Origin: a virus
DNA length: 64,000 nt
Virus record (IMG/VR): IMGVR_UViG_3300010885_081999
Coordinates: 1-64,000 of that record
Reading direction: 5' to 3' (one strand)
Shown: positions 29,728 through 50,913 of the stretch, in pieces
How positions within the stretch are numbered: the stretch's first letter is position 1
How the letters are laid out: every line of letters starts with the position of its first letter
Made by a program: the position numbers and the translations under genes
The notes under the pieces: model-generated
What the model was told of the DNA's origin: nothing
Seen by the model: the letters and a program-made list of their open reading frames with translations, nothing else
The model's database searches: none

Positions 29728-30153
29728 CTAACCTGTAAATATCACGTCGGCGTATCTATTGACGACTACGTCACAAGATTGGAGGATCTTGATGCCGTTG
29801 AGATCCCTGTACTCTTCGTCATAGACGACCTCTGAGATGTCGGCATTCACGATAAGCTTTGCGCACTGCACGCAAGGTGAGTGCGTGAGGTACATGATCT
29901 TCTTGCGATTGAAGTTGTAGTCACACTTGACGAGTGCATTCACTTCAGCATGTATGAAACCACTCTGTCCTGGGTCCGCCGAATCGGGAACGTTAGGTCC
30001 TCCCCTGTAGTTTCCGTTGTATCCCAGTGAGAGGAGACGAGTGTTGTCGTCTGAGACGACGATCGCTCCCACCTTGAGACGAGGATCGTAGGACCTCTCG
30101 GCCACGGTTCGAGCGATCGACATCCAGGATTCGTGCCAGGACGGTCTACGCAT
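29728..30153 (-). CDS. dCMP deaminase (ComEB-like)
   Basis: RPSW, VGAIVV, GYNG, HAEVNA and SPCVQC. Confidence 0.9.
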   Translation of the reverse strand: MRRPSWHESWMSIARTVAERSYDPRLKVGAIVVSDDNTRLLSLGYNGNYRGGPNVPDSADPGQSGFIHAEVNALVKCDYNFNRKKIMYLTHSPCVQCAKLIVNADISEVVYDEEYRDLNGIKILQSCDVVVNRYADVIFTG

Positions 30154-30154
30154 G

Positions 30155-30733
30155 TCAGTTCTCGTGGATCTTAGGACGCAGGTCGATCGAGATGTGATGC
30201 GAGTAGCATCTCGGCTCATAGAGCTCTGCACCTCCCACCTCGATCTCTTCGCCGTTTGTCTGCTTCTTGTGTGTGTAGTGGGCGTCCCTGCCGCAGACTG
30301 TGCACACAGCAGTGCATTTCTCGACGTGAGTCGACCACACGAGCATCTTCTCGATCTCGTGAAAAGGCTTGCCCGAGTAAGACATTTCGAGCGAGGAGAC
30401 GACGATGGTGAAACCGCTCTTGTAGAGCCAGATGAGGGACTCTGCGATGCCTGGAATCATGAAGGCCTCGTCGACCGCGATGACGTGAGGATTCTCGTCG
30501 AGGTTCGTGAGATGCTCGAGGATGTCCGCACCCGACTTGATGCACACAGCGGGAACCTTCCAGCCACCGTGGGTGACGACCTCACTAGGACTGTATCTGT
30601 CGTCGATCAGCGGCTTGAAGACGACGACTTTCTTGTGTTGATACTTGTATTTCTCGAGAGTTGAAAGGAGTCGCGACGTCTTCGACCCAAACATCGGCCC
30701 AGTGTAAACGATGAACTCAGGATTGCTCAACAT
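30155..30733 (-). CDS. tdk: Thymidine kinase
   Basis: GPMFGSKT, VDEA, CTVCG and VGGAELYEPRC. Confidence 0.92.
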   Translation of the reverse strand: MLSNPEFIVYTGPMFGSKTSRLLSTLEKYKYQHKKVVVFKPLIDDRYSPSEVVTHGGWKVPAVCIKSGADILEHLTNLDENPHVIAVDEAFMIPGIAESLIWLYKSGFTIVVSSLEMSYSGKPFHEIEKMLVWSTHVEKCTAVCTVCGRDAHYTHKKQTNGEEIEVGGAELYEPRCYSHHISIDLRPKIHEN

Positions 30734-30742
30734 TCTCTTACC

Positions 30743-31699
30743 TCACATGTCCTTGATCTTGTCCCAAGACTTCTCATACCACTCGATGGTTCGATCGAGT
30801 CCGTCCCAAAACCGAACAAGCGGAACGTAACCGAGAACCGCTGTGGTCTTCGATATGTCTGCCTGTGTGTGCATCACGTCTCCAGCACGCCACGGAGCTG
30901 TGTGGTGCTGGGCATAAGGATAGACTTCCTGGAGTTTTCCGAGCACCTCTGCGTTTGATGTCCTGTCGCCGCAGGCCACGTTGAGAGGTTCTGCGGCCAA
31001 TGGACCGACGTGCTCGACTGCTCTCATGCAAGCATCGACGACGTTGTCGACGTAGCACATGTCCCGTGTCTGCGAGCCGTCTCCGTCCGATCGCATGGAG
31101 TCGCCCTTCTTGATCGCAGTCAACCATGCCGAGACCGCGGTCGAATAAGGCGAATTTCCTAGCTGATTGGGTCCGAAGACGTTGAAGAAGCGAAGGGCGA
31201 CGGAATCAAGACCGTAGAGGTTGTAGTAGACCTTCATGTAGTCTTCGATGATCGACTTCTGGAGTGCGTAAGGTGACTTTGGATCCTTGGGATACGTCGT
31301 CGGAGTCGGCATGAAGTCTGCACCGCCATATACAGAACTCGATGATGCGAAGACGAACCGTCTCGCGTTGCCGCGGCAGGCCTGCATGAGGCGCAACGTC
31401 TTCGTCACATTCGTCTCGTGTGTCTCAAGAGGAAACTCCACGGAATAGCTCACACGAGGCACAGCGGCCAAGTGAACGACGGCGTCGAATTGCCCTGAGA
31501 CGACAGCATGAAGCACGTTCGGTGCCGAGAAGTCGCTTACCAGGAAGTTGTCTGATTCGACGAATCGAGAGTCGAGAAACTCTTCGTGGCCGTTGCTCAT
31601 GTCGTCCACGCCGAAGACATCCCAGCCTGATTCGAGGCATTTCTTCGTCAGGTTGCTGCCGATGAATCCCGCAGCACCTGTGATGAGAACCTTAGTCAT
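30743..31699 (-). CDS. NAD-dependent NDP-sugar epimerase/dehydratase
   Basis: TGAAGFIG, ASSSSVYG, YALQK and FNVFGP. Confidence 0.92.
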   Translation of the reverse strand: MTKVLITGAAGFIGSNLTKKCLESGWDVFGVDDMSNGHEEFLDSRFVESDNFLVSDFSAPNVLHAVVSGQFDAVVHLAAVPRVSYSVEFPLETHETNVTKTLRLMQACRGNARRFVFASSSSVYGGADFMPTPTTYPKDPKSPYALQKSIIEDYMKVYYNLYGLDSVALRFFNVFGPNQLGNSPYSTAVSAWLTAIKKGDSMRSDGDGSQTRDMCYVDNVVDACMRAVEHVGPLAAEPLNVACGDRTSNAEVLGKLQEVYPYAQHHTAPWRAGDVMHTQADISKTTAVLGYVPLVRFWDGLDRTIEWYEKSWDKIKDM

Positions 31700-31705
31700 G
31701 CGTCC

Positions 31706-31734
31706 ATTATAGGACGCATGCCTTCAAGAGTTCA
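31706..31734 (-). promoter_or_regulatory. Class A sigma70-like promoter TGAAC-N18-TATAAT, 6 nt before ATG
   Basis: Same architecture found at more than 12 other gene starts. Confidence 0.65.
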
Positions 31735-32502
31735 CCTCGTCTTGATCACGATTTCGACACCTTTGGGATCGGTGGTCAAAAAAGCCTTGAGGCGGTCGCC
31801 CTCGTAATCGATCATGACACCCTCATCTTCACTAGTGAGTTCTCCCTTGAGTGAGGACTCGAATCCCAGCTTCTTCATCACCTCGTCGCAGTACAAGGCA
31901 ATCTGATCCAGCATGGCGAGCTGTTTCGATGGCACCAGGACCCTGACGTTGACAGAAGTCTTGCTCAGCTCTTCGATGGTGACCTTTGATCCCTCAGACT
32001 CAAGGTCTTTCTTGATCGCGGAAGCGACGGCCATCTTGTCGGTGGGTGAAGGAGGTGCCGCAGTGACCTCCCCGCCCTTCATGACGGCGACGACCTTCTT
32101 TGCGAGAGCGCCCGCGTCGATCTTCTTCACTCTGCGGCCGGGTTCATAGTTCATCGGATTGAGGAATCCACCTACCATGTCAAGGACGGCATCGTGGACG
32201 TAGTACTCGACCATGCTGAGCCATTCGTCCCTTCTGTCGACGGGGTCCTTGATGCCCCTCATCTCTGACTCGATGTTTGACCAAGCGTCCCACATCGCTC
32301 CGAAAACCGGACCGCCCTCGTAAGAAGTATCTGAAGCCTCGTCGACGAGGTCTTCCGGGGCCCCTGCGGCCGTGAGTGCTGCAGAGAACACATTACGAAA
32401 CTTCATGAAGCTGTCGGGCGGGGAGGCAGCAGCCTTCGCGGCTTCGGCGATTTGCCTCTTGACAGAGGCACGAATCATTCGACGGAGTTCGTTGAGAGTC
32501 AT
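31732..32502 (-). CDS. Leader-tagged hypothetical protein
   Basis: MTLNELRRMIRASVKRQIAE; ATACTTA upstream. Confidence 0.7.
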   Translation of the reverse strand: MTLNELRRMIRASVKRQIAEAAKAAASPPDSFMKFRNVFSAALTAAGAPEDLVDEASDTSYEGGPVFGAMWDAWSNIESEMRGIKDPVDRRDEWLSMVEYYVHDAVLDMVGGFLNPMNYEPGRRVKKIDAGALAKKVVAVMKGGEVTAAPPSPTDKMAVASAIKKDLESEGSKVTIEELSKTSVNVRVLVPSKQLAMLDQIALYCDEVMKKLGFESSLKGELTSEDEGVMIDYEGDRLKAFLTTDPKGVEIVIKTR

Positions 32503-32517
32503 GCGTCTAAGTATTCT

Positions 32518-33513
32518 TCACTTCTTCCAGAAGTCATACATTCCCTTGGCGACCTCGTATTTCATCATCTTGACGGGACGTGGCGGCTGCTCCTTCGCCC
32601 AGACGAACATCTTCTCGACGAGGTCCTCAAAGTCTGTGTCGTCTACGAATCCCAGGTCTCTCTTCGCCTTTGTGTGGTCGCAGTAGGCGTGCTGCACCTC
32701 GTCACGAGGCTCGAGGTGGACTATCGCCACGTCGTGTCCCAATTTGGCCGCGACGCGTCGGAATCGAGAAGCCGCATCGGCGATCGTCATGTGTGAATCG
32801 GCACCCATGTTGTACGTCTCACCGTCGCCGGCATTCATCAAGGTCTCAAAGGGCGCCATGTAGTACTTGATGTCTGAGAACGACCGCGTCTGTGAGCCAT
32901 CACCGAAGACTGTGATGGGCTGACCCGACAATGTCTGTCTAATCCAGATGCCTAACACATTCCTGTATTTGTCCCAGATATTCTGGTGTACTCCAAAGAC
33001 GTTGTGCGGACGCACGACAGTGTAGTTGAGACCGAAGAGCCTGTGGGCCTGCTTCAGGTCCAACTCCACAGCATACTTTGCGATGCCGTAGGGATCTTCA
33101 GGCATCGGCACAAAGTCCTCGACGTAGGGCGGGTGATGATGGCTTCCGTAGACGTCCATGGACGACGTGAAGACAATCTTCTTCGAGTCGTGATTGACGC
33201 ACGCATTGATCACGTTTGCAGACCCCACCACGTTGTTCGAGTAGTTGAAGCTCCTGATGAAGGGACTGAGCCCCACCGCAGCATAGGCAGCGAAGTGATA
33301 GACGTACTGGGGTCTTCGTGTCCGAAATGCCTCGTCGACCGCGGACGAATCGACGAGGTTCACCTCCAAGAAATCGAGTCGTTCGTCGAGGTTCTCTCTA
33401 TAACCACCACTCAAGTCGTCGATGCCCGTCACCGTGTGACCGCGGTCGAGAAGGTGTCTCGAGAAATGACTTCCTAGTAGGCCTGCCACGCCTGTGATCA
33501 ATACACTCGCCAT
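32518..33513 (-). CDS. NAD-dependent NDP-sugar epimerase/dehydratase
   Basis: TGVAGLLG, TSSMDVYG, YGIAK and HNVFG. Confidence 0.92.
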   Translation of the reverse strand: MASVLITGVAGLLGSHFSRHLLDRGHTVTGIDDLSGGYRENLDERLDFLEVNLVDSSAVDEAFRTRRPQYVYHFAAYAAVGLSPFIRSFNYSNNVVGSANVINACVNHDSKKIVFTSSMDVYGSHHHPPYVEDFVPMPEDPYGIAKYAVELDLKQAHRLFGLNYTVVRPHNVFGVHQNIWDKYRNVLGIWIRQTLSGQPITVFGDGSQTRSFSDIKYYMAPFETLMNAGDGETYNMGADSHMTIADAASRFRRVAAKLGHDVAIVHLEPRDEVQHAYCDHTKAKRDLGFVDDTDFEDLVEKMFVWAKEQPPRPVKMMKYEVAKGMYDFWKK

Positions 33514-33522
33514 GATCCAGCA

Positions 33523-34428
33523 TTATACAGCATCACGACGCACGTGGAGGCTGTCGAACTGAACGACGAGTCTCACTGAGTTGACAGCCCAGCCGAAGGT
33601 CCGAGGAATTTCGGTGGAAAGGTGGGCAAGGAATCGAAGGTCGAGTGTACCGTTCTTCACGGAGTCCGTGCTCCTCAGAAGACTGATGACCTTGAGGTCG
33701 CCATCACGAGGCAAGAAGTGTATCGAAGAGATGCACGTGTCGCTGTGGTAGTAGAACCGCCTCGAGTCGAGTCCTTGTGGCGCTCCATAGGGATTTTTCC
33801 CTGACATCTCGTCGTGGATCACTTCCTCGCACGACTTGAGGATGTCCAAGAAGTACTCGCCTTCGTGGGGATCGTTGAGGATGGAGGGATCCGTGTACTG
33901 AGGTGGGACGTCGAACTCCACGCGTGCCTGCACCTCTTGGTCCTTTGACAGGAAAGTACAGTGTCTAATCGTGTGACCAAACACCCCCGGAGATTGTTCC
34001 GAATATTCCTGGATGTCCCTGCTGACTTCTCGTGCCTGGTCCGACAGGGAAGCGTCCCTCGAGAGGACGAGGACGTTGGGAAGTGCGATGATCTTCGAGA
34101 CCTCTTCCTGGAAGATCCTGTAGAGTTTCAAGAGCGAAGCGTCGTCCTGGAACTCGTCGCCTCGTGAGCGTAGTCTCTCGAGGACGACGTTGACAGGAGG
34201 CATCAGGACGACGAGGAAGTTGTTGAGATCACAGAGCTCTTCGCGGAGGGCAGCTCGATGCTCCGCCTCAGGCCGTCCGTAGAGACGCGCATAGCACAGC
34301 ATCGAGAGGAAGGACCGGTCTTGAATGTTGTACTTGAACTTCGTTTCCTTGTGCAGGGCTGAATAGAGCGAAGTCTTGCCGCTGCAGTCCGGTCCCTCTA
34401 GAATGACGTATTTGATCGGAATGTTCAT
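33523..34428 (-). CDS. NMP kinase fused to a thymidylate-synthase/dCMP-hydroxymethylase-like domain
   Basis: N-terminal EGPDCSGKT and DRSFLS; C-terminal SRR...CISSIHF...LRSTDSVKNGTLD...DSLHV. Confidence 0.7.
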   Translation of the reverse strand: MNIPIKYVILEGPDCSGKTSLYSALHKETKFKYNIQDRSFLSMLCYARLYGRPEAEHRAALREELCDLNNFLVVLMPPVNVVLERLRSRGDEFQDDASLLKLYRIFQEEVSKIIALPNVLVLSRDASLSDQAREVSRDIQEYSEQSPGVFGHTIRHCTFLSKDQEVQARVEFDVPPQYTDPSILNDPHEGEYFLDILKSCEEVIHDEMSGKNPYGAPQGLDSRRFYYHSDTCISSIHFLPRDGDLKVISLLRSTDSVKNGTLDLRFLAHLSTEIPRTFGWAVNSVRLVVQFDSLHVRRDAV

Positions 34429-36752
34429 GCCATCTGCCTCATCTTGAAGATCGAAGTCGAGAAGCCCCACTGAGGATCGTGTTGTGCCTTGCCTACCCAC
34501 AGGGTGTAGGGTTTGATCTCCTCCTGCGGCGTGCCCCATACTCGAATCCACGCGATCCTAAACTCGTCGTCCATCGCTTTACAACGATAGAACGACTTTC
34601 CGTTCTTCGTCTTCTTCAGCTCGGCGGACGCCATGCAGAACCAGCCGATGCCCTCCGTGCCCGGCGGGATGTCGTGGAGGCGAGGCACTTCCTTCGACGC
34701 GACCTTCTCCATGATCTCGGGTGGAAAGAGGAGGTCTGCGTCGATCGTGGACGTGAGGTCGAAGCGTAGGTTGATCTTCTCGTCACGAGTCCAGTCCTCC
34801 GTTTCTGCGAGCTCCTCGAGGAGGAAGTCGACGATGGGAATCACGGGTTCACCGGCCTTCGCCTTCTTCTTCAGTTGCGATGCAGTGAGACCGTAGAGGC
34901 CCTTTCGGAGGGTCTCGTAGTTCTTTTCCTCGGTGAGTGCGAGGAGGAGCTGCCGATGATTCGCGATGCGGCCGTACTGGAAGTCCTCGAGGGACTCTAG
35001 GCCTTCGATCTGACACAGGGCGGAGAGCACCGTCTTGTTCACCTTGCTGTGTCTCCATTCGCCGGCGTCGTCGTACAGCATCCCCTTGAGGTCCTTATAC
35101 GGTCGGTTGACCATGATCTCCTCGACGGCGGCGTTTCCGATGCCCTTCACCGAACCGAGGGGCGGAACGAAGGCGTTGGCCTCGTCGGAGAAGTCCCACT
35201 GCTTGCCCGAGTAGTTGACGTCGTGCTTCGAGAAGCTGTATCCCAATGCCTTCACCTCGGAGATCACCTTGGAGAGCTCCTTGGGATTGGACGAGGCAGA
35301 CTGCAGGATCGTGGCGAGCCAGTCCTTCTCGTAGTGGGTGTGGAGCCATGCCGCGTAGTAGGAGTCGATGGCATAGGACACGGAGTGGGACTTGTTGAAG
35401 CCGTAGAGCGAGAAGAACTCGATCTTGTCGAACAGCGCATTGGTGATGTCTTCCGAGATTCCGTGGATTTCTTTGGCGCCCTTCACGAACTTCTCGCGGA
35501 GCATCACCTTCTCGCCCGACTTCTTGTCGAGTGTGTCGAGTGACTTCTTCACGAGCGTCTTCCTCATCTGGTCGGACTCGCCCGGTGAGAAACCGCCGAG
35601 CTCCACGGCGAGGCTCATGAACTGTTCCTGGAAGGCGATGAAGCCGCGGGTCACACCGAGCACCTTCTCGATGAGCGGATGGTCGTACTTGATGCCCTCG
35701 ATGTTCTTACCGGCGTCGACGTACATATTGTGGACGTTCGCCTTGAGGGGACCGGGTCGGTAGATGGCAGTGATCGCCGCGAGCTCGTCGATCGTGTTGG
35801 GCTTCGCCTGCATGCAGAACTTCCGGGCTCCGCTGGCAGTGAACTGGAAGACGCCGACGAAGCGACCTTCCTGGTACACGTGCTTCCACACCGCGGGGTC
35901 GTCCTGCTTCACGTATCGACAGTTGAGGTGCTTGTCGAAGAACGCCTTGACGTCGAGGAACGTCGGATCGGGATTGCCCTGCTTCACGAGGATGCGTCGG
36001 ATGCAGTTCTCGACGTCCTTGAGGAGGGTGAGTCCCAGGAAGTCGAACTTGAGGAAGCCGTTGTCCTCGAGGTTGCGGAAGTTCATGCCCTCGGTCCACG
36101 GAGTCTGAAGCTCGCCGCGGACGCCGATGATGGGCATCGTGGCGGACAACTCCTCGGGATCGGCGACGAGGACGCCGCCGGCGTGACGGCCCACGGATCG
36201 GTTCTGCATGAAGAGCGTGCTGATGTGGTCCTCGACCTCCGGGTACTTCTCCATGAAGGCCTTGTACTTCGGAGAGAACCTCATACAGTCCTCGTGCTTC
36301 AGGACGAAGACGGACTTCTCCTGGTCCTCGTCCCGGGCGAGAGGCTCGACCTCCGCTTGGAGCGGGCCTGTCACCTCATTCACCTCCTCGAACGGAATGC
36401 CGTAGATTTTTGAGATGTCCTTGACGAGGGACTTCAGCTTCAGGGTGTTGAAGTTGGACACGGGAATGACCGCGTCCTCACCGAAGAGATTTCGAGCTTC
36501 CTCGATCAACACGTCTCGATCTGCAGCATCAGAGTCGATATCGGGCCACGAAGTATTGTGTGTCAGTGCAAAGTCCTTGCCTACTGTTGACACAAAAAAC
36601 GTATGATCATTAGCAACCTCGATGTCGACGTATTCTTCAGCTTTGTCGCTAAAGATGACTTCTTCGATCTCTACTTCTTCAAACTCGAGAGTTGACAACA
36701 AGATTTTTTGTTCCTTTGTAGTTTCTGAATTCGAGATTTGGAATGACATCAA
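34425..36752 (-). CDS. dnaE: DNA polymerase III alpha, C-terminal fragment preceded by split-intein IntC (likely TTG start about 36701)
   Basis: YVDIEV..DHTFFV...THN then TSWPDIDSD, GRHAGG, KFDFLGL, YRPGP and YGFNKSHS. Confidence 0.92.
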   Translation of the reverse strand: MMSFQISNSETTKEQKILLSTLEFEEVEIEEVIFSDKAEEYVDIEVANDHTFFVSTVGKDFALTHNTSWPDIDSDAADRDVLIEEARNLFGEDAVIPVSNFNTLKLKSLVKDISKIYGIPFEEVNEVTGPLQAEVEPLARDEDQEKSVFVLKHEDCMRFSPKYKAFMEKYPEVEDHISTLFMQNRSVGRHAGGVLVADPEELSATMPIIGVRGELQTPWTEGMNFRNLEDNGFLKFDFLGLTLLKDVENCIRRILVKQGNPDPTFLDVKAFFDKHLNCRYVKQDDPAVWKHVYQEGRFVGVFQFTASGARKFCMQAKPNTIDELAAITAIYRPGPLKANVHNMYVDAGKNIEGIKYDHPLIEKVLGVTRGFIAFQEQFMSLAVELGGFSPGESDQMRKTLVKKSLDTLDKKSGEKVMLREKFVKGAKEIHGISEDITNALFDKIEFFSLYGFNKSHSVSYAIDSYYAAWLHTHYEKDWLATILQSASSNPKELSKVISEVKALGYSFSKHDVNYSGKQWDFSDEANAFVPPLGSVKGIGNAAVEEIMVNRPYKDLKGMLYDDAGEWRHSKVNKTVLSALCQIEGLESLEDFQYGRIANHRQLLLALTEEKNYETLRKGLYGLTASQLKKKAKAGEPVIPIVDFLLEELAETEDWTRDEKINLRFDLTSTIDADLLFPPEIMEKVASKEVPRLHDIPPGTEGIGWFCMASAELKKTKNGKSFYRCKAMDDEFRIAWIRVWGTPQEEIKPYTLWVGKAQHDPQWGFSTSIFKMRQMA

Positions 36753-39487: not shown

Positions 39488-39514
39488 GTCGCAACGATCT
39501 GTCAGAGGTCTATT

Positions 39515-40117
39515 TCAGACCCGGTAGCCCTTGTCCACAGCCAGCGTCTCTGCCTCTATGCCAGCAGCTTCGAGCTGATCGACGATGGCTTGTGCCTCCT
39601 CCTCTGAAGCGAAGGCACGAGACGAATTGTAGCCGGGGTTGGCGCTCGAAGCACCCACGAGCTTGAACTTGATGCCATTTTTCGCAGCAATTGCATCGAA
39701 GGTCTTCTTGGTCTTGTCCCACTCCTTCGCAGAAAGGCCAGAATAAGACGGCGGAAGTATGTGTCCGCTGAGGGCAACAACCCACTCTCTCGGGGCCGAA
39801 GAGAAAGAGTCTATGTATTCGAGGACCGCGGAGGTCATGTTGGCCTCGGTCGCTCCCTGGGAGATCCAGTCCGCCATCCTGTCGACGATTGGATCGGTCT
39901 CTTTAGGGGGATACATGACGCCTGGGAGACCACGAAGATACGACCAGGCTTCAACGGCAGCGCCGTATGCATTGCCTGTCTTAAAGGCCTTGACGAACCC
40001 TGCGTTGGCCAATACCCTCTTGACGATCTGTGCACTGACGTCGGTTCCTTCGCGGAGGGCGACCTTCTGCACTTCTTCCTTGATGATTCTGCGAAGCTGA
40101 CTGACTGTGATCTTCAT
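39515..40117 (-). CDS. Leader-tagged hypothetical protein
   Basis: MKITVSQLRRIIKEEVQKVALRE; ATATTTA upstream. Confidence 0.75.
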   Translation of the reverse strand: MKITVSQLRRIIKEEVQKVALREGTDVSAQIVKRVLANAGFVKAFKTGNAYGAAVEAWSYLRGLPGVMYPPKETDPIVDRMADWISQGATEANMTSAVLEYIDSFSSAPREWVVALSGHILPPSYSGLSAKEWDKTKKTFDAIAAKNGIKFKLVGASSANPGYNSSRAFASEEEAQAIVDQLEAAGIEAETLAVDKGYRV

Positions 40118-40160
40118 GCGTTTTTCCTTTTGATCGAAAGAAATGCAAATAAATATTCCG

Positions 40161-41153
40161 TCAGGCCGGAAAGTGCTGCAGCAGGTCCACTTTCTTTGCG
40201 GCTGCCTCGTCGAGGTACTTCAGCGGGTTGTAGTCCTCGGATCCCCTGATCCACTCCAGGGTCTCTCGAATACCCTGCGACAAATCAAGTTCTGGTTTCC
40301 ACCCAAGCTTTTCCCTGATTTTCTGAGAGGACAATCGGTGGTTACCGAGGTAGTCCGTCTTGGGATGCCACACCAGCCGTCCGCTCGTGCCAGGGAGGTG
40401 GGCATCGACTTCGGACACGACCTCGGACGCGGGACGGGCAGTCTCCGCCGCAACGTTCCAGTCGGTTCCCCATCCCTGACCCATGGGATCTCGGCACACG
40501 ACCTCGATCGCCTTGCAGAAGTCCGACACGTGGAGGTAGTCCTTCACCTTGGTGGGATCGAGGAACATGTCGATCGAAGGTCGACCTTTCAGGGAGGCAT
40601 AGATCGACTTCGCGATGAGGGAGTTCATGTCACCGAGACCTCCGAAGGCGAAGAGGGGACGCACGATCGTCCATCGATTCGCCATCGCGGTGACGATCTG
40701 CTCGGCCGCGAGCTTCTGGACGCCGTAATATGTCCGCGGGCACTTGTCAGAGGCTTCCGTGATCCACTCGTCCTGGTATTTCGGAGTATCGTAGATCACC
40801 GTCGTGCCGAGGTAGCAGACAGCCGCCTTGGCCCTGTTCGCAGCCCGGACGATGTTGTAGGTGCCTTGCACGTTGGAAAGCACAGCTTCCTGAGGATCGA
40901 GCGCGACGACGTCTGTACCTACGACGGCCGCATTGTGCACGACGACGTCGATGTCGTTACCGTAGAGAACGTTGTACCATGCATCTTCTGAGTTCTGCCA
41001 GATGCATGCCTCCCCCGTCTTCGGAACCTTCTTGGGTTCTGCTGCGTCGGAGAAGAGCTCACCGTCAGTGACGACCTCGTGCTTACGAGACTCGAGGACG
41101 ACCTTGAGGTTGCGTGAGATCAGCCCGTTTTGGCCCGTGATGTAGAACTTCAT
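40161..41153 (-). CDS. Divergent NAD-dependent NDP-sugar epimerase/dehydratase
   Basis: ITGQNGLIS, HNAA, YGVQK and DYLHVSD; start MKFYITG. Confidence 0.85.
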   Translation of the reverse strand: MKFYITGQNGLISRNLKVVLESRKHEVVTDGELFSDAAEPKKVPKTGEACIWQNSEDAWYNVLYGNDIDVVVHNAAVVGTDVVALDPQEAVLSNVQGTYNIVRAANRAKAAVCYLGTTVIYDTPKYQDEWITEASDKCPRTYYGVQKLAAEQIVTAMANRWTIVRPLFAFGGLGDMNSLIAKSIYASLKGRPSIDMFLDPTKVKDYLHVSDFCKAIEVVCRDPMGQGWGTDWNVAAETARPASEVVSEVDAHLPGTSGRLVWHPKTDYLGNHRLSSQKIREKLGWKPELDLSQGIRETLEWIRGSEDYNPLKYLDEAAAKKVDLLQHFPA

Positions 41154-41170
41154 TGTACCTCCATCATAAA

Positions 41171-41206
41171 CGGCTCGGGCGGCCATTTTCACAGCCGCCC
41201 GAGCCG
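41171..41206. promoter_or_regulatory. 13-bp inverted repeat overlapping the epimerase promoter
   Basis: CGGCTCGGGCGGC-N10-GCCGCCCGAGCCG. Confidence 0.55.
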
Positions 41207-41214
41207 AAGCTATC

Positions 41215-41670
41215 TCACTCAATTTCCTTGTCGTACGGTTCGTAGAGCATCTTTCCTGCGGCCTTGCTGCGATCGAGATAATCCTCGAGCTCTTCGAATG
41301 AAGTACACACGCGTGCACCTGATCTACTCAACATGAGGTTGAATTTTGCTCCAGCTGGGAGTCCGGCGCAGAAGTAGATGATGTGCTTGTCGAAGGCTGT
41401 TGCATATCCGCACTCCATGATAGTGCCCAAGTCCTTATCGCGAGTGTTGACGACAAGGAAGTCAGATTCGCGGATGTGTTTCAAATTACCCTGATAAGTC
41501 GCATCCTGAACCTCACGGGAAGCATTTGGTGGGCAAATGAAGATTCGTCGTGGAGACGCCATGTCAATCCAGTCCTTACGTGCCTCCATGATTTGTTCGA
41601 GTCTGGTGAGCTCGGCGTCTTGAACGGGGTTGAACCAGCCTGCGGCGAGGTACATCTTTTTGCGATTCAT
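41215..41670 (-). CDS. Nucleoside 2'-deoxyribosyltransferase / nucleotide N-glycosidase (NDT/MilB/Rcl family)
   Basis: YLAAGWF, SPR, DLGTIMECGYA and NLML. Confidence 0.8.
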   Translation of the reverse strand: MNRKKMYLAAGWFNPVQDAELTRLEQIMEARKDWIDMASPRRIFICPPNASREVQDATYQGNLKHIRESDFLVVNTRDKDLGTIMECGYATAFDKHIIYFCAGLPAGAKFNLMLSRSGARVCTSFEELEDYLDRSKAAGKMLYEPYDKEIE

Positions 41671-42566
41671 CTTTGATTTGCCTTTCTAGTTGTGTATTCC
41701 AATAGTAGCATGTCTTTATCAATTGAACAACGTGACTGTTTACGCACGTTGTCAACTGCAGGAATGAATTCTAAGTTAGAAATGTCACCAATGACTTCTG
41801 GTGGCAGGCCTTGCCTAAAGCCTTCGGCAACAGAGAACTTGTGATCTAGGTGATACTCACCTCGCTTATCGTGGTTGTCGAGTTGATCTATCGGTTGCAT
41901 ACGAGTGAAATGATCAACTCTTCTTCTATAGTCCTGAAATTCAGGTAGATCATCGACGTACTGTTGCCAAGTTTTTCCATGCGTCTTGAGCAGCTTCTTG
42001 TCCATAGAAGAAGAGATAAACGCTGGCGATAAGACGATGTTGTGCACTCCAAACTTTTCGACACAAGTTTCTTCTGCTCGAGATCGTAGAATAGGAGATT
42101 CGAAAGTCGATGGGCCACCCCATCTATCAGTCATCGTTTGGCGCCGCCGGGCAAGCACTTCGGGATTTTCAATCGGAGACTTATAGCCGTATCTCTTCAA
42201 ATTTGTCTCTTCGATCTTGGCCCTAAACTCTTCCGTCTGAGAGTAAACATCGACTCCATAACGCTCGCGAGTAGTCTTCTTCGACTTCTCTTTGGTTGAG
42301 TCAAGCTCAAATGTGCTAGCAACACCATACTTTCTAATGTTGTTATTTTTGCGTTTTTCTTTTATCTCATCGCAAGACATTGGAAAGTCTGTCCCGTGCT
42401 TCTCTAAACTCTTCTTTCGACGAAGCTCGTATGTGATACCGCCTTTCTTCTGGGCAAGGTAGATGCACTCTTTCGAGCAAAAGAAGAAGCCAGATTTGTT
42501 GCTAAGCGGATTCTTTGGCACGAATATCGTCTTGCACTGCGAGCAGATTTTCTCTTTCATCGCCAA
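41667..42566 (-). CDS. Putative HNH homing endonuclease with KYG repeats (lower GC)
   Basis: CSQC/FCSKEC, repeated (K/R)YG units, YHLDHKFS...SNLEFIPAVDNVRK. Confidence 0.72.
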   Translation of the reverse strand: MAMKEKICSQCKTIFVPKNPLSNKSGFFFCSKECIYLAQKKGGITYELRRKKSLEKHGTDFPMSCDEIKEKRKNNNIRKYGVASTFELDSTKEKSKKTTRERYGVDVYSQTEEFRAKIEETNLKRYGYKSPIENPEVLARRRQTMTDRWGGPSTFESPILRSRAEETCVEKFGVHNIVLSPAFISSSMDKKLLKTHGKTWQQYVDDLPEFQDYRRRVDHFTRMQPIDQLDNHDKRGEYHLDHKFSVAEGFRQGLPPEVIGDISNLEFIPAVDNVRKQSRCSIDKDMLLLEYTTRKANQR

Positions 42567-42681
42567 TCCTCTCTCGAATGATCTCGGCGACGAATTGACT
42601 CATCAGTAATCCATGTTGAGCACAATACACCTTCAGCGCTTTGTGAGTCTCTTCGTCCACCGAGATCTTCGATTGTTTCAT
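42502..42681 (-). CDS. Small ribbon-helix-helix-like regulator, not in the ORF track
   Basis: Manual translation, 59 aa: MKQSKISVDEETHKALKVYCAQHGLLMSQFVAEIIRERI... Confidence 0.6.
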   Translation of the reverse strand: MKQSKISVDEETHKALKVYCAQHGLLMSQFVAEIIRERIGDERENLLAVQDDIRAKESA

Positions 42682-42717
42682 GGCTATACGTATCTAAGCA
42701 AGTACTAAAGTACTTAG

Positions 42718-43701
42718 TTACTTACCTACCTTCCAATCGTTGTGCTGCCTCTTGATGGCATTCCAGTCTGTCATGTCTGCGTTCCACAGCTCGGTGAATC
42801 GCTTCTGTGGTCCGTTGCCGTGGGTGCCGTTGATGTCCTCGCGGGTCGACTGATAGATCGTGTCCTGTGGATGGAACTCGAACGTGTCGTTCTTCGGGAT
42901 GGGCCAGTAGAGGTTCGTGCCTCGCGACACGAACTTGTCACCTTCCTTGACGCGGAAGGTCTTGATGTAGTGCATGTCGGGCTTGTTGAAGTCGATCACG
43001 GACGTGAACTCGGGGATCACCTTCGCCACCTCGACTGCCATGCGAGACGCGAGGAGGTTGTCGGCAGCCGGCTGGATCTGGGTGTCCATTCGCTGGTAGA
43101 TGAAGCCGATGAGCTCCTTGAGTGGGAGGCGCATGTAGTAGAACGACGTCATGCACTTCGGGAGGATGAGTCGGGCATCCATCATCGACACGACCTTCGA
43201 ATCCGTCATGTCGGCATAGAGCTGCTTCGAGTCCTCGACGAGCTTCTTCCATCGAGCGTGGAACTCAGGAGAGTTCTGGACGGGCTCGGGAATCACAGCG
43301 TCGTCGTCTCGGAGGTCACGGTCGCCCGTGCACTGGGCGGCGAAGGTGCCGGCACGATGGCGGATGATGTGTGTCACCTCCTGAAACGAGAGGCCGCTGA
43401 GACGGAAAGTGAAGCCGAGGCACTCCATGGGAGCGGGAAGCGTGCGGCCGCCGAACACGTCCTCGAGGTTCTTCGACAGCTCACGCTGGGTGACGCCGCT
43501 GGTGGGATCGATGTCCGGGCGGTCTGCCCACGTCGCCTTGACGTAGTGCCACGCGACGTTCCAGGCCTGCTGACGCGTGGGAGCGTCGACTAGCTCCACC
43601 TTGAGGGCATCGAGGTTGTTGTGGAACTGGGTCTTCGGTTCTTGACCGAACTTGAGGACCATGGGAAGCTCAATGGGTTGAAGATCACGATTGATGGGCA
43701 T
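42718..43701 (-). CDS. Divergent ThyX-fold (flavin-dependent) protein
   Basis: FTFRLSGLS...HIIRHRAGTFAAQCTGDR and DARLILP; canonical ESxRY replaced. Confidence 0.75.
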   Translation of the reverse strand: MPINRDLQPIELPMVLKFGQEPKTQFHNNLDALKVELVDAPTRQQAWNVAWHYVKATWADRPDIDPTSGVTQRELSKNLEDVFGGRTLPAPMECLGFTFRLSGLSFQEVTHIIRHRAGTFAAQCTGDRDLRDDDAVIPEPVQNSPEFHARWKKLVEDSKQLYADMTDSKVVSMMDARLILPKCMTSFYYMRLPLKELIGFIYQRMDTQIQPAADNLLASRMAVEVAKVIPEFTSVIDFNKPDMHYIKTFRVKEGDKFVSRGTNLYWPIPKNDTFEFHPQDTIYQSTREDINGTHGNGPQKRFTELWNADMTDWNAIKRQHNDWKVGK

Positions 43702-43777
43702 TCTTACCTCTGTGTTTGAATTGATGCAGACTCTTGTATCCTAAACAGACAAGTCGTTTCTTTGCATCGTCGGGACG

Positions 43778-44722
43778 TCAAATGACGTAATCGACGAAAC
43801 TGATGGGGTCGCTGCCCTCTGGGACATACACGACGTTCTTCATTCCCTCGACCTCGGCGTTGTAAGTCTTTTCGGGAACGATCACAGGCACTCCGTGTTT
43901 CGCGTATTCCGCTGCGTGCTTCGCAGAATCATCGACGGCGAAATACTTGCCGGTGGAGTAGTAGGGTTGGTCGGTGAGCCACACGTATTTCTCAGGCGTG
44001 AATGTCACGCCGTCGGCCGCGATGTCGTGCCTCGAAAGCCAGGAGTACGTGTCGTAGAAGGCGGTGAGATTGGAGGCAGGACGTGCAGTGACGATCTGGA
44101 TCCAGTATCCTCTGTCCTTGAGGTGCCTCAGGAGACCCGTGTACTTTTCGTTGCGTTCGAGCAGGAGAAATCCGTGTGTGTCGATGAAGGTCTTGAAGAG
44201 GACCTCGTTGTTGAGTCCGCTCTTCTTCAGTTCTTCTGTGGCATAATACTGTTTGCTCTTGGGATCGAGAAAGCAACCCGTCGTTTCGGTCACCCATCCA
44301 CAGAATGAAGACCTGAACTCGGCGAGGACGTCGTCCATGTCGAACAGGGCGACAGGCTGTCCGGCCCACTTCTTTGTGGAAAGCTCGTGCCTGTAGTGGA
44401 GGAAGTCGTCCTTCTGCGACAAGGCGGCCTCGAAAGTGGAGGCGCCGATTCCCCAGAGGTTCAACATCGCGAGGATGTAACGGTATGCGTCGACGGACTT
44501 GTAGAGTATCTTCTGCACGTCGACGGGATGCTTGACACCTCGATGATCCTTGTAGTTGACGCCCTCAACGATTCCGCTTGCTTCGGCGTGAAGTGCAAGA
44601 ACGAACGTCTTGAGAAGCTCTTGCTTCTGCCAGTCGTCCAGCTTCTCAGGATCGAAGAAGATGTCTGAGAAGGCCTTCTGACGCCCTAGGGCTTCGTGCA
44701 GCTTCGACCAGTCGTTCATCAA
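43778..44722 (-). CDS. All-alpha NTP-PPase-like domain fused to HAD 5'(3')-deoxyribonucleotidase-like domain
   Basis: N-terminal LALHAE...NYKDHR...VDAYRY; C-terminal FDMDDVL, IVTARP and VDDS. Confidence 0.7.
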   Translation of the reverse strand: MMNDWSKLHEALGRQKAFSDIFFDPEKLDDWQKQELLKTFVLALHAEASGIVEGVNYKDHRGVKHPVDVQKILYKSVDAYRYILAMLNLWGIGASTFEAALSQKDDFLHYRHELSTKKWAGQPVALFDMDDVLAEFRSSFCGWVTETTGCFLDPKSKQYYATEELKKSGLNNEVLFKTFIDTHGFLLLERNEKYTGLLRHLKDRGYWIQIVTARPASNLTAFYDTYSWLSRHDIAADGVTFTPEKYVWLTDQPYYSTGKYFAVDDSAKHAAEYAKHGVPVIVPEKTYNAEVEGMKNVVYVPEGSDPISFVDYVI

Positions 44723-45096
44723 TAGTCCTTCTTGATTCGATCGTTGATGATCTTGTCCTTCTTGAGATAGGCTTCGAACAGCTCATCCGCCGTGATTCCC
44801 AGCATGATGGGCACCGCGAGAAAGAAGTTGAACGCATCCACGTACTCCTCGAGGAATGCCTCCTGATCGAAGTCTTTCACCTCTGTCGCACGATGCGGCT
44901 TCCAGTTCTTCAGGTGCTGAAGCGCCTCGAACATCTCCTCGACGCCCTTCAGGACGTTGTCGCGCACTGCGATCTGACCCTCCTTCGAGGTGATGTCGAC
45001 GGGCCACTTCTGCAACACGGCGGGCCTCGCAGCAGCGAGGTCTTTCATGAACTTCTCTCGAAGCTCCAGCATTTTCGATAGACGGTCTTCTTGCAT
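44719..45096 (-). CDS. Dimeric dUTPase/dCTPase (MazG-like, T4 gp56 type)
   Basis: EEMFEA...NWKPHR...LEEYVDAFNFF...YLKK. Confidence 0.8.
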   Translation of the reverse strand: MQEDRLSKMLELREKFMKDLAAARPAVLQKWPVDITSKEGQIAVRDNVLKGVEEMFEALQHLKNWKPHRATEVKDFDQEAFLEEYVDAFNFFLAVPIMLGITADELFEAYLKKDKIINDRIKKDY

Positions 45097-50905: not shown

Positions 50906-50913
50906 GTCGTTAA

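What the first reader, a model, noticed from the sequence alone, without database searches (positions are those of the whole stretch)
29728..45096. Candidate new cytosine-hypermodification pathway wrapped around the phage DNA polymerase
Seen: dnaE is flanked by a co-oriented set of nucleotide enzymes. These are a dimeric dUTPase/dCTPase (44719), an NTP-PPase-HAD fusion (43778), a divergent ThyX-fold protein (42718), an NDT/MilB-like glycosidase (41215), three NDP-sugar epimerases (40161, 32518, 30743), a kinase/TS-like fusion (33523), TK and dCMP deaminase. A complete ordinary dTMP route (thyX + tmk) exists separately at 56124-57400, so these paralogs are free to do something else. Known: T4 replaces C using dCTPase gp56, TS-fold dCMP hydroxymethylase gp42 and kinase gp1. 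Inference: this phage makes a modified, possibly sugar-substituted, dCTP before replication, using a ThyX-fold flavoenzyme plus a minimal TS-fold domain. I do not recognise this combination as a described pathway. No glycosyltransferase is recognisable in this window.
Basis: partly seen in the sequence, partly recalled or inferred. Interest (0 to 1): 0.9.

Follow-up and report, generated by a model that had tools for sequence, protein, structure and literature searches.

The report
Phage cytosine-modification module around DnaE
An uncultured ~300-kb freshwater phage keeps a conserved set of unusual nucleotide enzymes around its DNA polymerase gene, including a kinase fused to a miniature cytosine-reading thymidylate-synthase-like enzyme and a rewired second ThyX. 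The set most likely makes a chemically altered cytosine for the phage's DNA, but no chemistry has been measured and a sugar decoration is not supported.

Summary
All listed genes exist, are co-oriented, and flank an intein-split dnaE. Where contig ends allow a call, the core is syntenic in related IMG/VR contigs: MazG-like NTP-PPase 66/66, HAD fusion 58/66, ThyX-like 80/80 (it was the query), NDT 43/43, SDR 'epi3' 38/43, kinase/mini-TS 15/15.

The strongest new support concerns 33523-34428. It encodes a YorR-like kinase fused to a ~175-aa thymidylate-synthase-fold domain. That domain keeps the catalytic Cys, and Asp sits at the ThyA-N177 position in 137/137 family representatives, which is the dCMP-specifying change. 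Its nearest structures are phage dCMP hydroxylase AfhB and T4 dCMP hydroxymethylase.

The ThyX paralogue has Cys where ThyX has Ser88 and has lost several ThyX residues. It coexists with a canonical ThyX in all five genomes checked.

Culturable Geobacillus phage GR1 has the same ThyX-like gene directly followed by a standalone mini-TS.

The sugar part is weak. The fragment has no glycosyltransferase. A complete relative has GTs only in a distant glycan island of the kind usually read as surface or virion glycan. epi2 and the unknown ORFs are not conserved.

Other agents of this scan reached similar readings on related DNA. I found no published description.

Verdict: a probable pre-replicative cytosine C5 modification, product unknown.

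The parts
44719..45117 (-). All-alpha (MazG / dimeric-dUTPase-like) NTP pyrophosphohydrolase of 132 aa. Candidate dCTPase, analogous to T4 gp56.
   Evidence: PF08761 7.6e-6. phrog_12184 'nucleotide pyrophosphohydrolase' 1.3e-18. E61, E64, E90, E91 and D94 are invariant in 22 homologues. Present in 66/66 loci with enough upstream flank.
43778..44722 (-). Fusion of a degenerate MazG-like domain (res 1-112) with a HAD 5'(3')-deoxyribonucleotidase (res ~120-300).
   Evidence: PF06941 NT5C 1.1e-5. The DxDDV motif (D128, D130) and D264/D265 are invariant. The N-domain matches the MazG family by hhalign at 98.2%, E 4e-14, but with the acidic ligands replaced. Present in 58/66 loci. No tblastn hit in cultured phages.
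42718..43701 (-). ThyX-fold paralogue of 327 aa with a rebuilt active-site loop, RHRAG(T/S)FAAQCTGDRDLR.
   Evidence: PF02511 1.9e-16. The best PDB hit of the family profile is the TmThyX S88C mutant 3g4c, so C124 aligns with Ser88. H53->C94, N85->A121, E86->A122 and R90->G126, while R147 and R174 are kept. Foldseek finds the ThyX/PolB fold. More than 1000 metagenomic homologues. Coexists with canonical ThyX in 5/5 genomes.
41667..42566 (-). DUF7487 homing endonuclease inserted between the ThyX-like gene and NDT. Mobile and not part of the pathway.
   Evidence: PF24308 2.4e-24. phrog_3339 'homing endonuclease'. Present in only 3 related loci. In relatives NDT follows the ThyX-like gene at a median gap of 9 nt.
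41215..41670 (-). Nucleoside 2'-deoxyribosyltransferase family protein of 151 aa.
   Evidence: PF05014 6.9e-13. The family profile hits NDT 6evs at 9e-14. Y7, D70, D80, E86 (nucleophile position) and N111 are invariant. Present in 43/43 loci.
40161..41153 (-). Extended SDR 'epi3' (RmlB/RmlD/GalE-like) with an intact GxxGxxA fold motif and a T..YxxxK triad.
   Evidence: PF01370 4e-28. Below every NCBIfam equivalog cut-off. T117/T118, Y143 and K147 are invariant, and mean column identity is 59%. Present in 38/43 loci but tightly coupled to NDT in only 12/63.
39515..40117 (-). Unknown 200-aa ORF with no conserved counterpart.
   Evidence: No Pfam or PHROG family. No tblastn hit in 80 related loci.
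37639..39405 (-). DnaE N-terminal piece (PHP domain and start of the palm) plus an N-intein remnant.
   Evidence: PF02811 and PF07733, and a weak Hint_2 hit at res 493-529. Relatives have a contiguous dnaE.
36679..37599 (-). Free-standing endonuclease gene (Zn ribbons plus an endonuclease-I-like domain) between the dnaE halves.
   Evidence: PF05367 5e-5. Homologues at 40-45% identity sit elsewhere (next to epi3) in a distant sub-clade.
34425..36752 (-). DnaE C-terminal piece (palm, fingers, HhH), preceded by a C-intein segment.
   Evidence: PF17657 1.9e-35, PF07733 and PF14579.
33523..34428 (-). Bifunctional 'kinX'. A YorR-like P-loop deoxynucleoside/deoxynucleotide kinase (res 1-~124) is fused to a ~175-aa mini thymidylate-synthase-fold domain. 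That domain has C232 (ThyA C146), R223/R224, R252/S253, D255 (D169) and D263 (N177).
   Evidence: Profile against PDB: YorR 2axp 7e-9 and T4 dCMP hydroxymethylase 1b49 2.4e-3, with Cys and Asp aligned. AF2 model pLDDT 93. The Foldseek top hit is dCMP hydroxylase AfhB 9iqu, 2e-5. hhalign against RB69 gp48: 86.7%, E 4e-6. Residue census over 150 representatives. Present in 15/15 loci directly after dnaE.
32518..33513 (-). Extended SDR 'epi2' (GalE-like). Found only in the closest relatives.
   Evidence: PF01370 3.5e-50. A high-identity counterpart (63-71%) is seen only in L003 and L004; the other tblastn hits, at about 25% identity, are to paralogous SDRs.
31732..32502 (-). Unknown 256-aa ORF between two SDR genes. 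Not conserved.
   Evidence: No family in Pfam, PHROGs or NCBIfam. No usable Atlas hit. No hit in related loci.
30743..31699 (-). Extended SDR 'epi1' (TviC/GalE-like 4-epimerase type). Often follows kinX in relatives.
   Evidence: PF01370 2.8e-52. Best NCBIfam matches are TviC and GalE, both below cut-off. Present after kinX in many loci but absent in some.
30155..30733 (-). Thymidine kinase.
   Evidence: PF00265 1.4e-39.
29728..30231 (-). dCMP deaminase.
   Evidence: PF00383 7e-21.
56124..57400 (-). Canonical thyX (56714-57400) and tmk (56124-56717), the ordinary dTMP route.
   Evidence: PF02511 8.5e-34 and PF02223 3.8e-13.

Best explanation
The module is a pre-replicative pyrimidine-modification pathway of the T4/RB69 kind, most likely acting on cytosine C5.

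Proposed flow, all inferred from homology:
1. The MazG-like NTP-PPase turns dCTP into dCMP. This removes the canonical triphosphate and feeds the pathway.
2. The mini-TS domain of kinX attacks C6 of dCMP with its Cys and installs a small C5 group. Asp263 reads the 4-amino group.
3. The fused YorR-like kinase phosphorylates the product at once, host NDK completes the triphosphate, and the phage DnaE incorporates it.

In this phage the ThyA-D169 position is Asp, as in folate-type enzymes, and the residues before the Cys are polar. The best guess is therefore 5-hydroxymethyl-dC. Half of the family has Asn there, which is the published signature of flavin/O2-dependent 5-hydroxy-dCMP synthases.

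The ThyX-fold paralogue is a second dedicated pyrimidine-nucleotide enzyme. It may serve as flavin partner or donor for the truncated mini-TS. In Geobacillus phage GR1 the two genes abut, and a nitroreductase-type flavin reductase gene lies immediately upstream of the ThyX-like gene.

The HAD fusion, NDT, TK and dCMP deaminase form a nucleoside-level shunt that clears or recycles canonical deoxynucleotides.

The SDRs are not needed for this scheme. epi3 may tailor a sugar or nucleoside, but its role is open.
For: Shown by tools:
- TS-fold homology of kinX res ~125-301, with Cys, the Arg pair, Arg-Ser, Asp (N177 position) and His aligned to T4 dCMP hydroxymethylase and RB69 5hodCMP synthase.
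- Family-wide conservation: Cys 135/141, Asp 137/137, R166 139/143, S167 140/142, H207 126/128.
- A kinase domain with P-loop, DR and RxxxRGD motifs, homologous to YorR.
- Strict co-conservation and gene order. kinX directly after dnaE in 15/15 loci, MazG 66/66, NDT 43/43. Median ThyX-like->NDT gap 9 nt.
- ThyX-like and canonical ThyX both present in 5/5 genomes, so the paralogue is not redundant.
- GR1 carries the ThyX-like gene followed directly by a standalone mini-TS (96%, E 3e-9), plus a separate YorR-like kinase, NDT, an annotated dUTP diphosphatase gene and a glycosyltransferase, beside its DnaE.

From the literature:
- TS homologues with N177D make C5-modified dCMP.
- They need a cognate dNMP kinase.
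- In RB69 they lie beside the polymerase gene together with sugar-nucleotide genes (PMC13326640).
Against: - No chemistry has been measured.
- Pfam's ThyA model (PF00303) does not detect the mini-TS.
- The domain lacks roughly a third of a normal TS, including most of the cofactor-binding N-terminal part, so it may bind rather than modify nucleotides.
- The specificity of the MazG-like enzyme is unknown.
- The phage also has three DNA methyltransferases, the usual alternative form of protection.
- The NDT, HAD nucleotidase, TK and deaminase are ordinary salvage enzymes.
- The ThyX-like protein keeps the equivalents of Arg147 and Arg174, which contact uracil nucleotides in ThyX. It may therefore act on dUMP rather than dCMP.
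- GR1 has no other thymidylate synthase, so there the paralogue could simply make dTMP.
Confidence: 0.55

Rival explanations
1. Ordinary dNTP-pool management. The genes salvage and rebalance deoxynucleotides from degraded host DNA for a large phage genome. The route is NTP-PPase, 5'-nucleotidase, base exchange by NDT, TK, dCMP deaminase, ThyX and kinases. The ThyX paralogue and mini-TS are diverged but make or bind canonical nucleotides, and the DNA carries only canonical and methylated bases. The SDRs are auxiliary glycan genes that happen to lie here.
For: - NDT, TK, dCMP deaminase, NT5C-type HAD, RNR, canonical ThyX and Tmk are all standard salvage or de novo enzymes.
- GR1 has the ThyX-like protein as its only TS homologue.
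- Three DNA methyltransferases are present.
- Jumbo phages often carry SDR/GT clusters that are read as surface-glycan genes (PMC7824862). A complete relative has such an island.
Against: - It does not explain why a canonical ThyX and a rewired one are both kept in 5/5 genomes.
- It does not explain why a kinase is fused to a TS-fold domain with 100% Asp at the cytosine-specifying position.
- It does not explain why that pair is linked to the ThyX-like gene even in an unrelated Geobacillus siphovirus.
Confidence: 0.22
2. Thymidine-type rather than cytosine-type modification. The ThyX-like enzyme makes a C5-modified dUMP (for example 5-hm-dUMP or a larger adduct), possibly from deaminated products, and the DNA carries a hypermodified T. 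This would resemble SPO1, the ViI/M6 phages, or the sugar-like T adducts newly found in DnaE-encoding Pbunaviruses.
For: - The ThyX-like protein keeps the equivalents of the uracil-nucleotide-contacting Arg147 and Arg174.
- A dCMP deaminase lies in the module.
- Pbunavirus F8 and 14-1 have thymidines bearing sugar-alcohol or pentose-like groups, with unknown genes (10.1101/2025.03.31.646159).
- SDR genes are embedded in this module.
Against: - The mini-TS has Asp, not Asn, at the N177 position in every member.
- Neither the ThyX-like protein nor the HAD fusion has a tblastn match in any Pbunavirus.
- A full canonical dTMP route is kept.
Confidence: 0.13
3. The module makes a free, non-DNA nucleoside or nucleotide. 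Examples would be a base-modified or sugar-modified nucleoside used against the host or its defences, by analogy with the MilA (TS-like, Asp) plus MilB (NDT-fold) logic of cytosine nucleoside antibiotics.
For: A TS-fold domain with Asp, an NDT-fold enzyme, SDRs and a UDPGP-family pyrophosphorylase occur together in one genome. The MilA structures are among the Foldseek hits.
Against: - The NDT resembles true deoxyribosyltransferases, and MilB is not hit.
- The kinase fusion and the position directly after dnaE point to DNA precursor supply.
- No cytosylglucuronate-synthase-like or peptidyl-tailoring genes are seen.
Confidence: 0.07

Closest known systems
T4 cytosine replacement: gp56 dCTPase, gp42 dCMP hydroxymethylase, gp1 dNMP kinase
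   Same: The enzyme logic matches. There is an all-alpha NTP-PPase and a TS-fold enzyme with the catalytic Cys and Asp at the N177 position. There is also a dedicated kinase and a dCMP deaminase. The mini-TS profile aligns to gp42 (1b49) with C148 and D179 matched.
   Different: TS and kinase are fused here. The TS domain is ~175 aa against 246 aa and is not detected by PF00303. The polymerase is DnaE, not family B. A ThyX-fold paralogue, NDT and HAD fusion have no T4 counterpart. No DNA glucosyltransferase is recognisable.
Flavin/O2-dependent 5-hydroxy-dCMP synthases (HY126 AfhB, PDB 9iqu/9iqc; RB69 gp48; DLP3 gp80) and their arabinosylation clusters (PMC13326640)
   Same: AfhB is the best structural match of the kinX model. 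hhalign to RB69 gp48 gives E 4e-6. The RB69 cluster also lies beside the polymerase gene and mixes nucleotide, HAD and sugar-nucleotide genes. About half of the mini-TS family, including GR1's copy, carries the D169N signature.
   Different: This window's copy has Asp, not Asn, at the D169 position. No arabinose-5-P isomerase, Araf kinase/pyrophosphorylase or Aat-type transferase was found. Flavin binding by the mini-TS is untested.
Canonical flavin-dependent thymidylate synthase ThyX/FDTS (T. maritima TM0449, M. tuberculosis Rv2754c) and UMP methylase PolB
   Same: Same fold (Foldseek). The RHR motif and the equivalents of Arg147 and Arg174 are kept.
   Different: Ser88->Cys, His53->Cys, Asn85/Glu86->Ala/Ala, Arg90->Gly. 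There is a ~70-aa N-terminal and a ~95-aa C-terminal extension. It scores 32.5 bits against the 87.9-bit cut-off of TIGR02170. It is always accompanied by a normal ThyX in this clade.
Geobacillus phage GR1 (OK896991) replication/nucleotide module
   Same: A ThyX-like protein (47% identity), NDT (39%), a mini-TS, a YorR-like kinase and an annotated dUTP diphosphatase gene all lie beside a DnaE-type polymerase.
   Different: Kinase and mini-TS are separate genes. The mini-TS directly follows the ThyX-like gene. GR1 adds a glycosyltransferase, an HD protein, a nitroreductase, NUDIX, an amidoligase and GGCT, and it lacks a canonical ThyX or ThyA. Its DNA composition has not been reported.
Pbunavirus (F8, 14-1) TG-context hypermodified thymidine
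   Same: These are phages with a DnaE polymerase distantly related to this one and sugar-like base adducts whose genes are unknown.
   Different: Neither the ThyX-like protein nor the HAD fusion has a detectable homologue in Pbunaviruses. The modified base there is T, whereas the determinant here points to C.

Membership tests
Thymidylate synthase superfamily (ThyA / dCMP hydroxymethylase / 5hodCMP synthase): kinX C-domain | TS fold | tested here: met
   The AF2 model (pLDDT 93) hits AfhB, ThyA, MilA and T4 dCH by Foldseek at E 2e-5 to 5e-4. Only about 175 aa are present, so it is a truncated version.
Thymidylate synthase superfamily: kinX C-domain | Catalytic Cys (ThyA C146), phosphate-binding Arg pair (R126/R127), R166-S167, H207 | tested here: met
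   Aligned in the profile-PDB and hhalign comparisons. Conserved in 135/141, 137/140, 139/143, 140/142 and 126/128 representatives.
Thymidylate synthase superfamily: kinX C-domain | Recognition by the curated family model PF00303 | tested here: not met
   No match at E<=1 in five genomes of the clade. Homology rests on profile-profile and structure comparison.
dCMP-acting TS homologues | Asp at the ThyA N177 position | tested here: met
   D263 here, and Asp in 137/137 representatives. It aligns to D179 of T4 dCH.
5-hydroxy-dCMP synthases (Lee et al. 2026 signature) | Asn at the ThyA D169 position | tested here: not met
   The window has D255. Family-wide counts are N 64, D 61 and E 8. GR1's copy has N.
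5-hydroxy-dCMP synthases | Bound flavin and O2-dependent hydroxylation | not testable with these tools
   Needs purified protein.
ThyX / FDTS | ThyX fold and RHR motif | tested here: met
   PF02511 1.9e-16. Foldseek hits to Mtb and Tm ThyX and to PolB. R114-H115-R116 are invariant.
ThyX / FDTS | Full signature RHRxxSxxxxSxRY and the flavin/folate-contacting His53, Asn85 and Glu86 (residue roles recalled from the ThyX literature) | tested here: not met
   The loop reads RHRAG(T/S)FAAQCTGDR. The changes are H53->C94, N85->A, E86->A, S88->C and R90->G, all invariant in 17 sequences. It is below the TIGR02170 cut-off.
Nucleoside 2'-deoxyribosyltransferase (PF05014) | Catalytic Glu nucleophile with the Tyr, Asp, Asp and Asn of the nucleoside site | tested here: met
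   Y7, D70, D80, E86 and N111 are invariant. Best PDB match is NDT 6evs at 9e-14. Which residues separate nucleoside-acting from dNMP-acting members is recalled from memory.
All-alpha NTP pyrophosphohydrolase (MazG / dimeric dUTPase / T4 gp56 superfamily) | ExxE ... ExxD metal-binding carboxylates | tested here: met
   For 44719-45117, E61, E64, E90, E91 and D94 are invariant. For the N-domain of 43778-44722 most are replaced, so the feature is not met there.
HAD 5'(3')-deoxyribonucleotidase (NT5C) | DxDx(T/V) nucleophile motif and distal DD | tested here: met
   D128-M-D130-D131-V and D264-D265 are invariant. PF06941 1.1e-5, just above the cut-off.
Extended SDR NDP-sugar epimerase/dehydratase | Rossmann GxxGxxG/A motif and S/T-YxxxK triad; assignment to a specific equivalog | tested here: inconclusive
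   The fold and triad are met for all three. None reaches any NCBIfam equivalog cut-off, so substrate and reaction are unknown.
Phage DNA glycosylation systems | DNA glycosyltransferase encoded with the base-modifying genes | tested here: not met
   There is no GT1/GT2 match in the 103.7-kb record. Unknown ORFs of the module gave no family. GTs in relatives lie in a distant glycan island. Novel GT folds cannot be excluded.

The most novel reading that the evidence does not exclude
The ThyX-fold paralogue and the miniature TS domain form a two-component pyrimidine C5-functionalising system not described so far. The truncated TS supplies the Cys nucleophile and cytosine recognition. The rewired ThyX-fold flavoprotein supplies the flavin-borne one-carbon unit or oxygen that full-length TS homologues hold in their own cofactor pocket. 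The fused kinase traps the product. An NDT/HAD/TK nucleoside shunt and an embedded SDR would then tailor or recycle it, giving a cytosine derivative unlike hmC or 5hoC in a very abundant clade of freshwater and marine giant phages.
Probability: 0.2. Interest if true: 0.88.

Novelty: new variant of a known kind. Interest (0 to 1): 0.7.

Why it matters
Modified phage DNA blunts restriction and CRISPR defences, and it has given useful enzymes such as hmC tools and glucosyltransferases.

This module is not a curiosity of one contig:
- The ThyX-like family has more than 1000 distinct metagenomic members.
- The mini-TS family has about 400 representatives at the 50% clustering level.
- Both occur in 200-300-kb phages of lakes and oceans.

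If the module makes a modified cytosine, a large and abundant phage lineage would have non-canonical DNA that current metagenomics ignores. Two enzyme families would also gain functions: a kinase-fused minimal TS and a Cys-bearing ThyX fold.

The split into Asp and Asn at the D169 position inside one family would be a natural experiment on the switch between folate and flavin chemistry in the TS superfamily. Lee et al. 2026 left that question open.

The question is directly testable, because Geobacillus phage GR1 is in culture and carries the core genes.

Tried and rejected
- Complex prediction of two ThyX-like chains with the mini-TS domain gave no verdict (score 0.00). This is not evidence either way.
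- Pfam PF00303 does not see the mini-TS.
- Single-sequence phmmer of the ThyX-like protein against the PDB found nothing. The family profile was needed.
- Megablast of the whole region against GenBank phages gave no match. The DnaE is under 30% identical to any cultured phage.
- kinX and the HAD fusion have no tblastn homologue in cultured phages, apart from the GR1 kinase piece.
- The search for glycosyltransferases found none in this record. Unknown ORFs at 31732, 39515, 45121, 46102, 46777, 48034, 54008, 17303, 18352, 20086 and 21363 gave no useful Pfam or PHROG family. The Atlas search of 31732 gave no usable hit.
- Genes filling the variable gaps of the module in relatives gave no flavin reductase or GT.
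- MilB/DNPH1-type glycosidase reading of the NDT: rejected, because true NDTs match far better.
- Sequencing runs: near-identical DNA occurs in several freshwater metagenome studies, but only as assembled contigs. No read-level signal of modification could be examined, and read laying was not run.
- The GR1 paper reports nothing on DNA modification or restriction resistance.
- The link to the Pbunavirus thymidine adducts was considered and not supported by homology.

Full report
**Source and setting.** The window is the first 64 kb of a 103,725-bp IMG/VR virus record that CheckV rates 32% complete, so the phage is about 300 kb. Near-identical DNA occurs in several freshwater metagenome studies. 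The record encodes long tail-sheath proteins, gp32, RecA, RNR, DnaB and a DnaE-type replicase. No GenBank phage matches the region by DNA. The DnaE is under 30% identical to any cultured phage, and the nearest are Pbunaviruses.

**Observation.** Start codons needed correction for kinX (about 34428) and epi3 (about 41153), judged from homologue lengths. Three details change:
- The NDT is a true-NDT relative rather than MilB/DNPH1-like.
- The N-domain of the HAD fusion is a paralogue of the adjacent MazG-like protein (hhalign 98.2%, E 4e-14) with most metal ligands lost.
- A DUF7487 homing endonuclease interrupts the ThyX-like/NDT pair.

**Conservation.** The ThyX-like protein retrieved 113 relatives in IMG/VR at 56-91% identity, and 80 loci were fetched. 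tblastn of all window proteins against them shows one order: MazG, HAD fusion, ThyX-like, NDT, epi3, dnaE, kinX, (epi1), TK, dCMP deaminase. Counting only loci with enough flank gives the following:

| Gene | Loci with the gene |
|---|---|
| MazG | 66/66 |
| HAD fusion | 58/66 |
| NDT | 43/43 |
| epi3 | 38/43 |
| kinX | 15/15 |

Gene spacing differs along the module:
- ThyX-like->NDT is translationally tight (median gap 9 nt, 49/77 within 30 nt).
- dnaE->kinX is also tight (median 8 nt).
- NDT->epi3 is usually separated by 0.4-3 kb of variable genes.

A close epi2 counterpart and homologues of 46102 and 48034 occur only in the closest relatives. ORFs 31732, 39515, 45121 and 46777 have no homologue in any fetched locus. 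kinX is also found in a distant sub-clade and in a complete 284-kb genome.

**The kinase/mini-TS fusion.** An alignment of 15 family members (A2) hits two things by profile search of the PDB. One is SPbeta YorR, a deoxynucleoside/deoxynucleotide-kinase-like P-loop protein (7e-9). The other is T4 dCMP hydroxymethylase (2.4e-3), with the family's invariant Cys on C148 and its invariant Asp on D179.

The AF2 model is confident (pLDDT 93). Its best Foldseek match is 9iqu, the dCMP hydroxylase AfhB of phage HY126, followed by ThyA, MilA and T4 dCH. hhalign of the C-domain alignment against RB69 gp48 gives 86.7% probability and E 4e-6. The SRR, C, RS-x-(D/N), D and SAH motifs are in register. RB69 gp48 is an experimentally verified 5-hydroxy-dCMP synthase (PMC13326640).

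An exhaustive profile search finds 399 representatives. Most are ~300-aa fusions. Among the best 150 the site counts are:

| ThyA position | Residue | Count |
|---|---|---|
| C146 | Cys | 135/141 |
| N177 | Asp | 137/137 |
| R166 | Arg | 139/143 |
| S167 | Ser | 140/142 |
| H207 | His | 126/128 |
| D169 | Asn / Asp / Glu | 64 / 61 / 8 (of 141) |

The window has Asp at the D169 position. Lee et al. 2026 use N177D as the dCMP determinant and D169N as the mark of hydroxylases. By that signature this copy reads cytosine, while the nature of the C5 group stays open. Asp at the D169 position, together with polar residues before the Cys, favours a one-carbon (hydroxymethyl-type) product. That last step is inference.

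Two caveats apply. PF00303 does not detect the domain. It is also about one third shorter than any characterised TS, lacking much of the cofactor-binding half.

**The ThyX paralogue.**
- In seventeen sequences the loop is invariantly RHRAG(S/T)FAAQCTGDRDLR.
- The best PDB hit of the family profile is the engineered S88C mutant of T. maritima ThyX, so C124 stands at Ser88.
- The same alignment gives H53->C94, N85/E86->A121/A122 and R90->G126, while the equivalents of R147 and R174 stay.
- The fold is ThyX/PolB.
- It scores 32.5 bits against the 87.9-bit thyX equivalog cut-off.
- All five genomes of the clade that I searched carry both this paralogue and a canonical ThyX, so it is not a spare thymidylate synthase.
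- What it does is unknown. The roles of the replaced residues (flavin, folate and NADPH contacts) are recalled from the ThyX literature, not tested here.

**The cultured relative.** Geobacillus phage GR1 is the only GenBank phage with this paralogue (47% identity) and a matching NDT. Around its DnaE-type polymerase it encodes the following:
- NDT
- an HD protein
- a glycosyltransferase
- a P-loop protein
- a nitroreductase
- the ThyX-like protein
- two small ORFs
- a dUTP diphosphatase (as annotated in the record; not examined here)
- NUDIX
- a guanylate kinase
- further on, an amidoligase, GGCT and TK

The 151-aa ORF that starts where the ThyX-like gene ends is a standalone mini-TS (hhalign 96.1%, E 3e-9). 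It keeps the Cys, has RSSN (the D169N state) and has Asp at the N177 position. The P-loop protein is the YorR-like kinase half (96.7%, E 4e-10).

The fusion of this window therefore exists as two genes in an unrelated siphovirus, and there the mini-TS is coupled to the ThyX-like gene. This is the best evidence that the two act in one pathway. It remains genomic inference. GR1 has no other ThyX or ThyA, and its DNA chemistry is unreported.

**Sugars.**
- All three SDRs have intact fold and triad motifs, but none reaches any equivalog cut-off.
- The record has a UDPGP-family pyrophosphorylase but no GT1/GT2 gene.
- In the complete relative, GTs lie 90-120 kb from the module. They sit in an island with Gmd, GT11, GT6, GT4, GT2, a carbamoyltransferase and a radical-SAM enzyme.
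- In jumbo phages this kind of cluster is usually read as surface glycan remodelling (PMC7824862).
- epi3 is the exception, because it keeps its place between NDT and dnaE across the clade.
- In RB69 the sugar-nucleotide genes do lie beside the polymerase, so a DNA-sugar link is not excluded. It has no positive support here.

**Mechanism and odds.**

| Reading | Odds |
|---|---|
| T4/RB69-type pre-replicative cytosine C5 modification. MazG-like dCTPase makes dCMP, the mini-TS makes 5-X-dCMP, and the fused kinase traps it. The ThyX-fold protein is a second, possibly partner, enzyme, with a nucleoside-level clearing and salvage shunt (HAD, NDT, TK, deaminase). | 0.55 |
| Plain dNTP salvage and pool balancing | 0.22 |
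| A thymidine-type modification | 0.13 |
| A free nucleoside product | 0.07 |

A structure-prediction test of ThyX-like/mini-TS binding gave no verdict and counts for nothing.

**Novelty.** The kind of system is known: a TS-superfamily enzyme, a kinase and an NTPase making a modified pyrimidine before replication. Several features have no published counterpart that I could find in the paper library:
- the kinase fusion
- the minimal TS domain
- the Cys-bearing ThyX paralogue
- the tight NDT coupling
- the embedded SDR

Other agents of this scan reached similar conclusions on related genomes. I re-derived the main points independently. I add the family-wide residue census and the Asp/Asn split at the D169 position. 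I also add the flank-corrected co-conservation counts and the gene-spacing data. The other additions are the degenerate MazG paralogy of the HAD fusion and the character of the distant glycan island.

Noticed in passing
window 34425-39405: dnaE is fractured. The N piece ends in a Hint-like segment and the C piece begins with about 50 extra residues. A free-standing Zn-ribbon/endonuclease-I-like gene (36679-37599) lies between them. Relatives have an uninterrupted dnaE. In a distant sub-clade the endonuclease homologue sits next to epi3 instead. This points to a split intein with a mobile homing endonuclease.
   Followed up: partly
window 3042-7469: A complete DUF444 (YeaH) - SpoVR (YcgB) - PrkA (YeaG) trio on the plus strand (E 1e-103 to 1e-136). 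This is a bacterial stress/sporulation-linked kinase module carried by the phage.
   Followed up: no
window 9710-10771 (-): A UDPGP-family NDP-sugar pyrophosphorylase (PF01704, 2.5e-22) about 20 kb from the module. It shows the phage can activate a sugar-1-phosphate, but its link to the SDRs is untested.
   Followed up: no
L110/L111 (complete relative G004, 124-149 kb): A large glycan-biosynthesis island. It holds two GT1 genes, GDP-mannose 4,6-dehydratase and three further SDRs. It also holds a radical-SAM enzyme, a carbamoyltransferase, GT11 (fucosyltransferase family), GT6, GT4, two GT2 genes and HtrL. It looks like synthesis of a fucosylated, carbamoylated oligosaccharide by a phage.
   Followed up: partly
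window 41667-42566 and L082:2497-3453: Two DUF7487 homing-endonuclease genes in one genome. One splits the otherwise tightly coupled ThyX-like/NDT pair and the other lies next to recA and gp32.
   Followed up: no
window 7480-8238, 50914-51963, 51717-52556: Three DNA methyltransferase genes, one D12-class and two N6_N4. The two N6_N4 ORFs overlap by about 250 nt as listed, so one start is probably downstream.
   Followed up: no
window 28720-29457, 24654-25406, 49949-50992, 55281-55664, 14806-15807: Auxiliary genes scattered around the module: Fe/Mn superoxide dismutase, a carbon-nitrogen hydrolase, LD-carboxypeptidase (S66), an Hsp20 and an RNA ligase.
   Followed up: no
L084 (Geobacillus phage GR1, record 40057-41289): GR1 also encodes an amidoligase and a gamma-glutamylcyclotransferase near its nucleotide module. 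Genes of this type have been linked to base hypermodification by comparative genomics (recalled from the literature), which makes GR1 a good wet-lab target.
   Followed up: no
L082:6001-7206 (G000 70001-71206): A 401-aa ORF with a partial family-A DNA polymerase domain (PF00476, 4.6e-10) in a genome whose replicase is DnaE.
   Followed up: no
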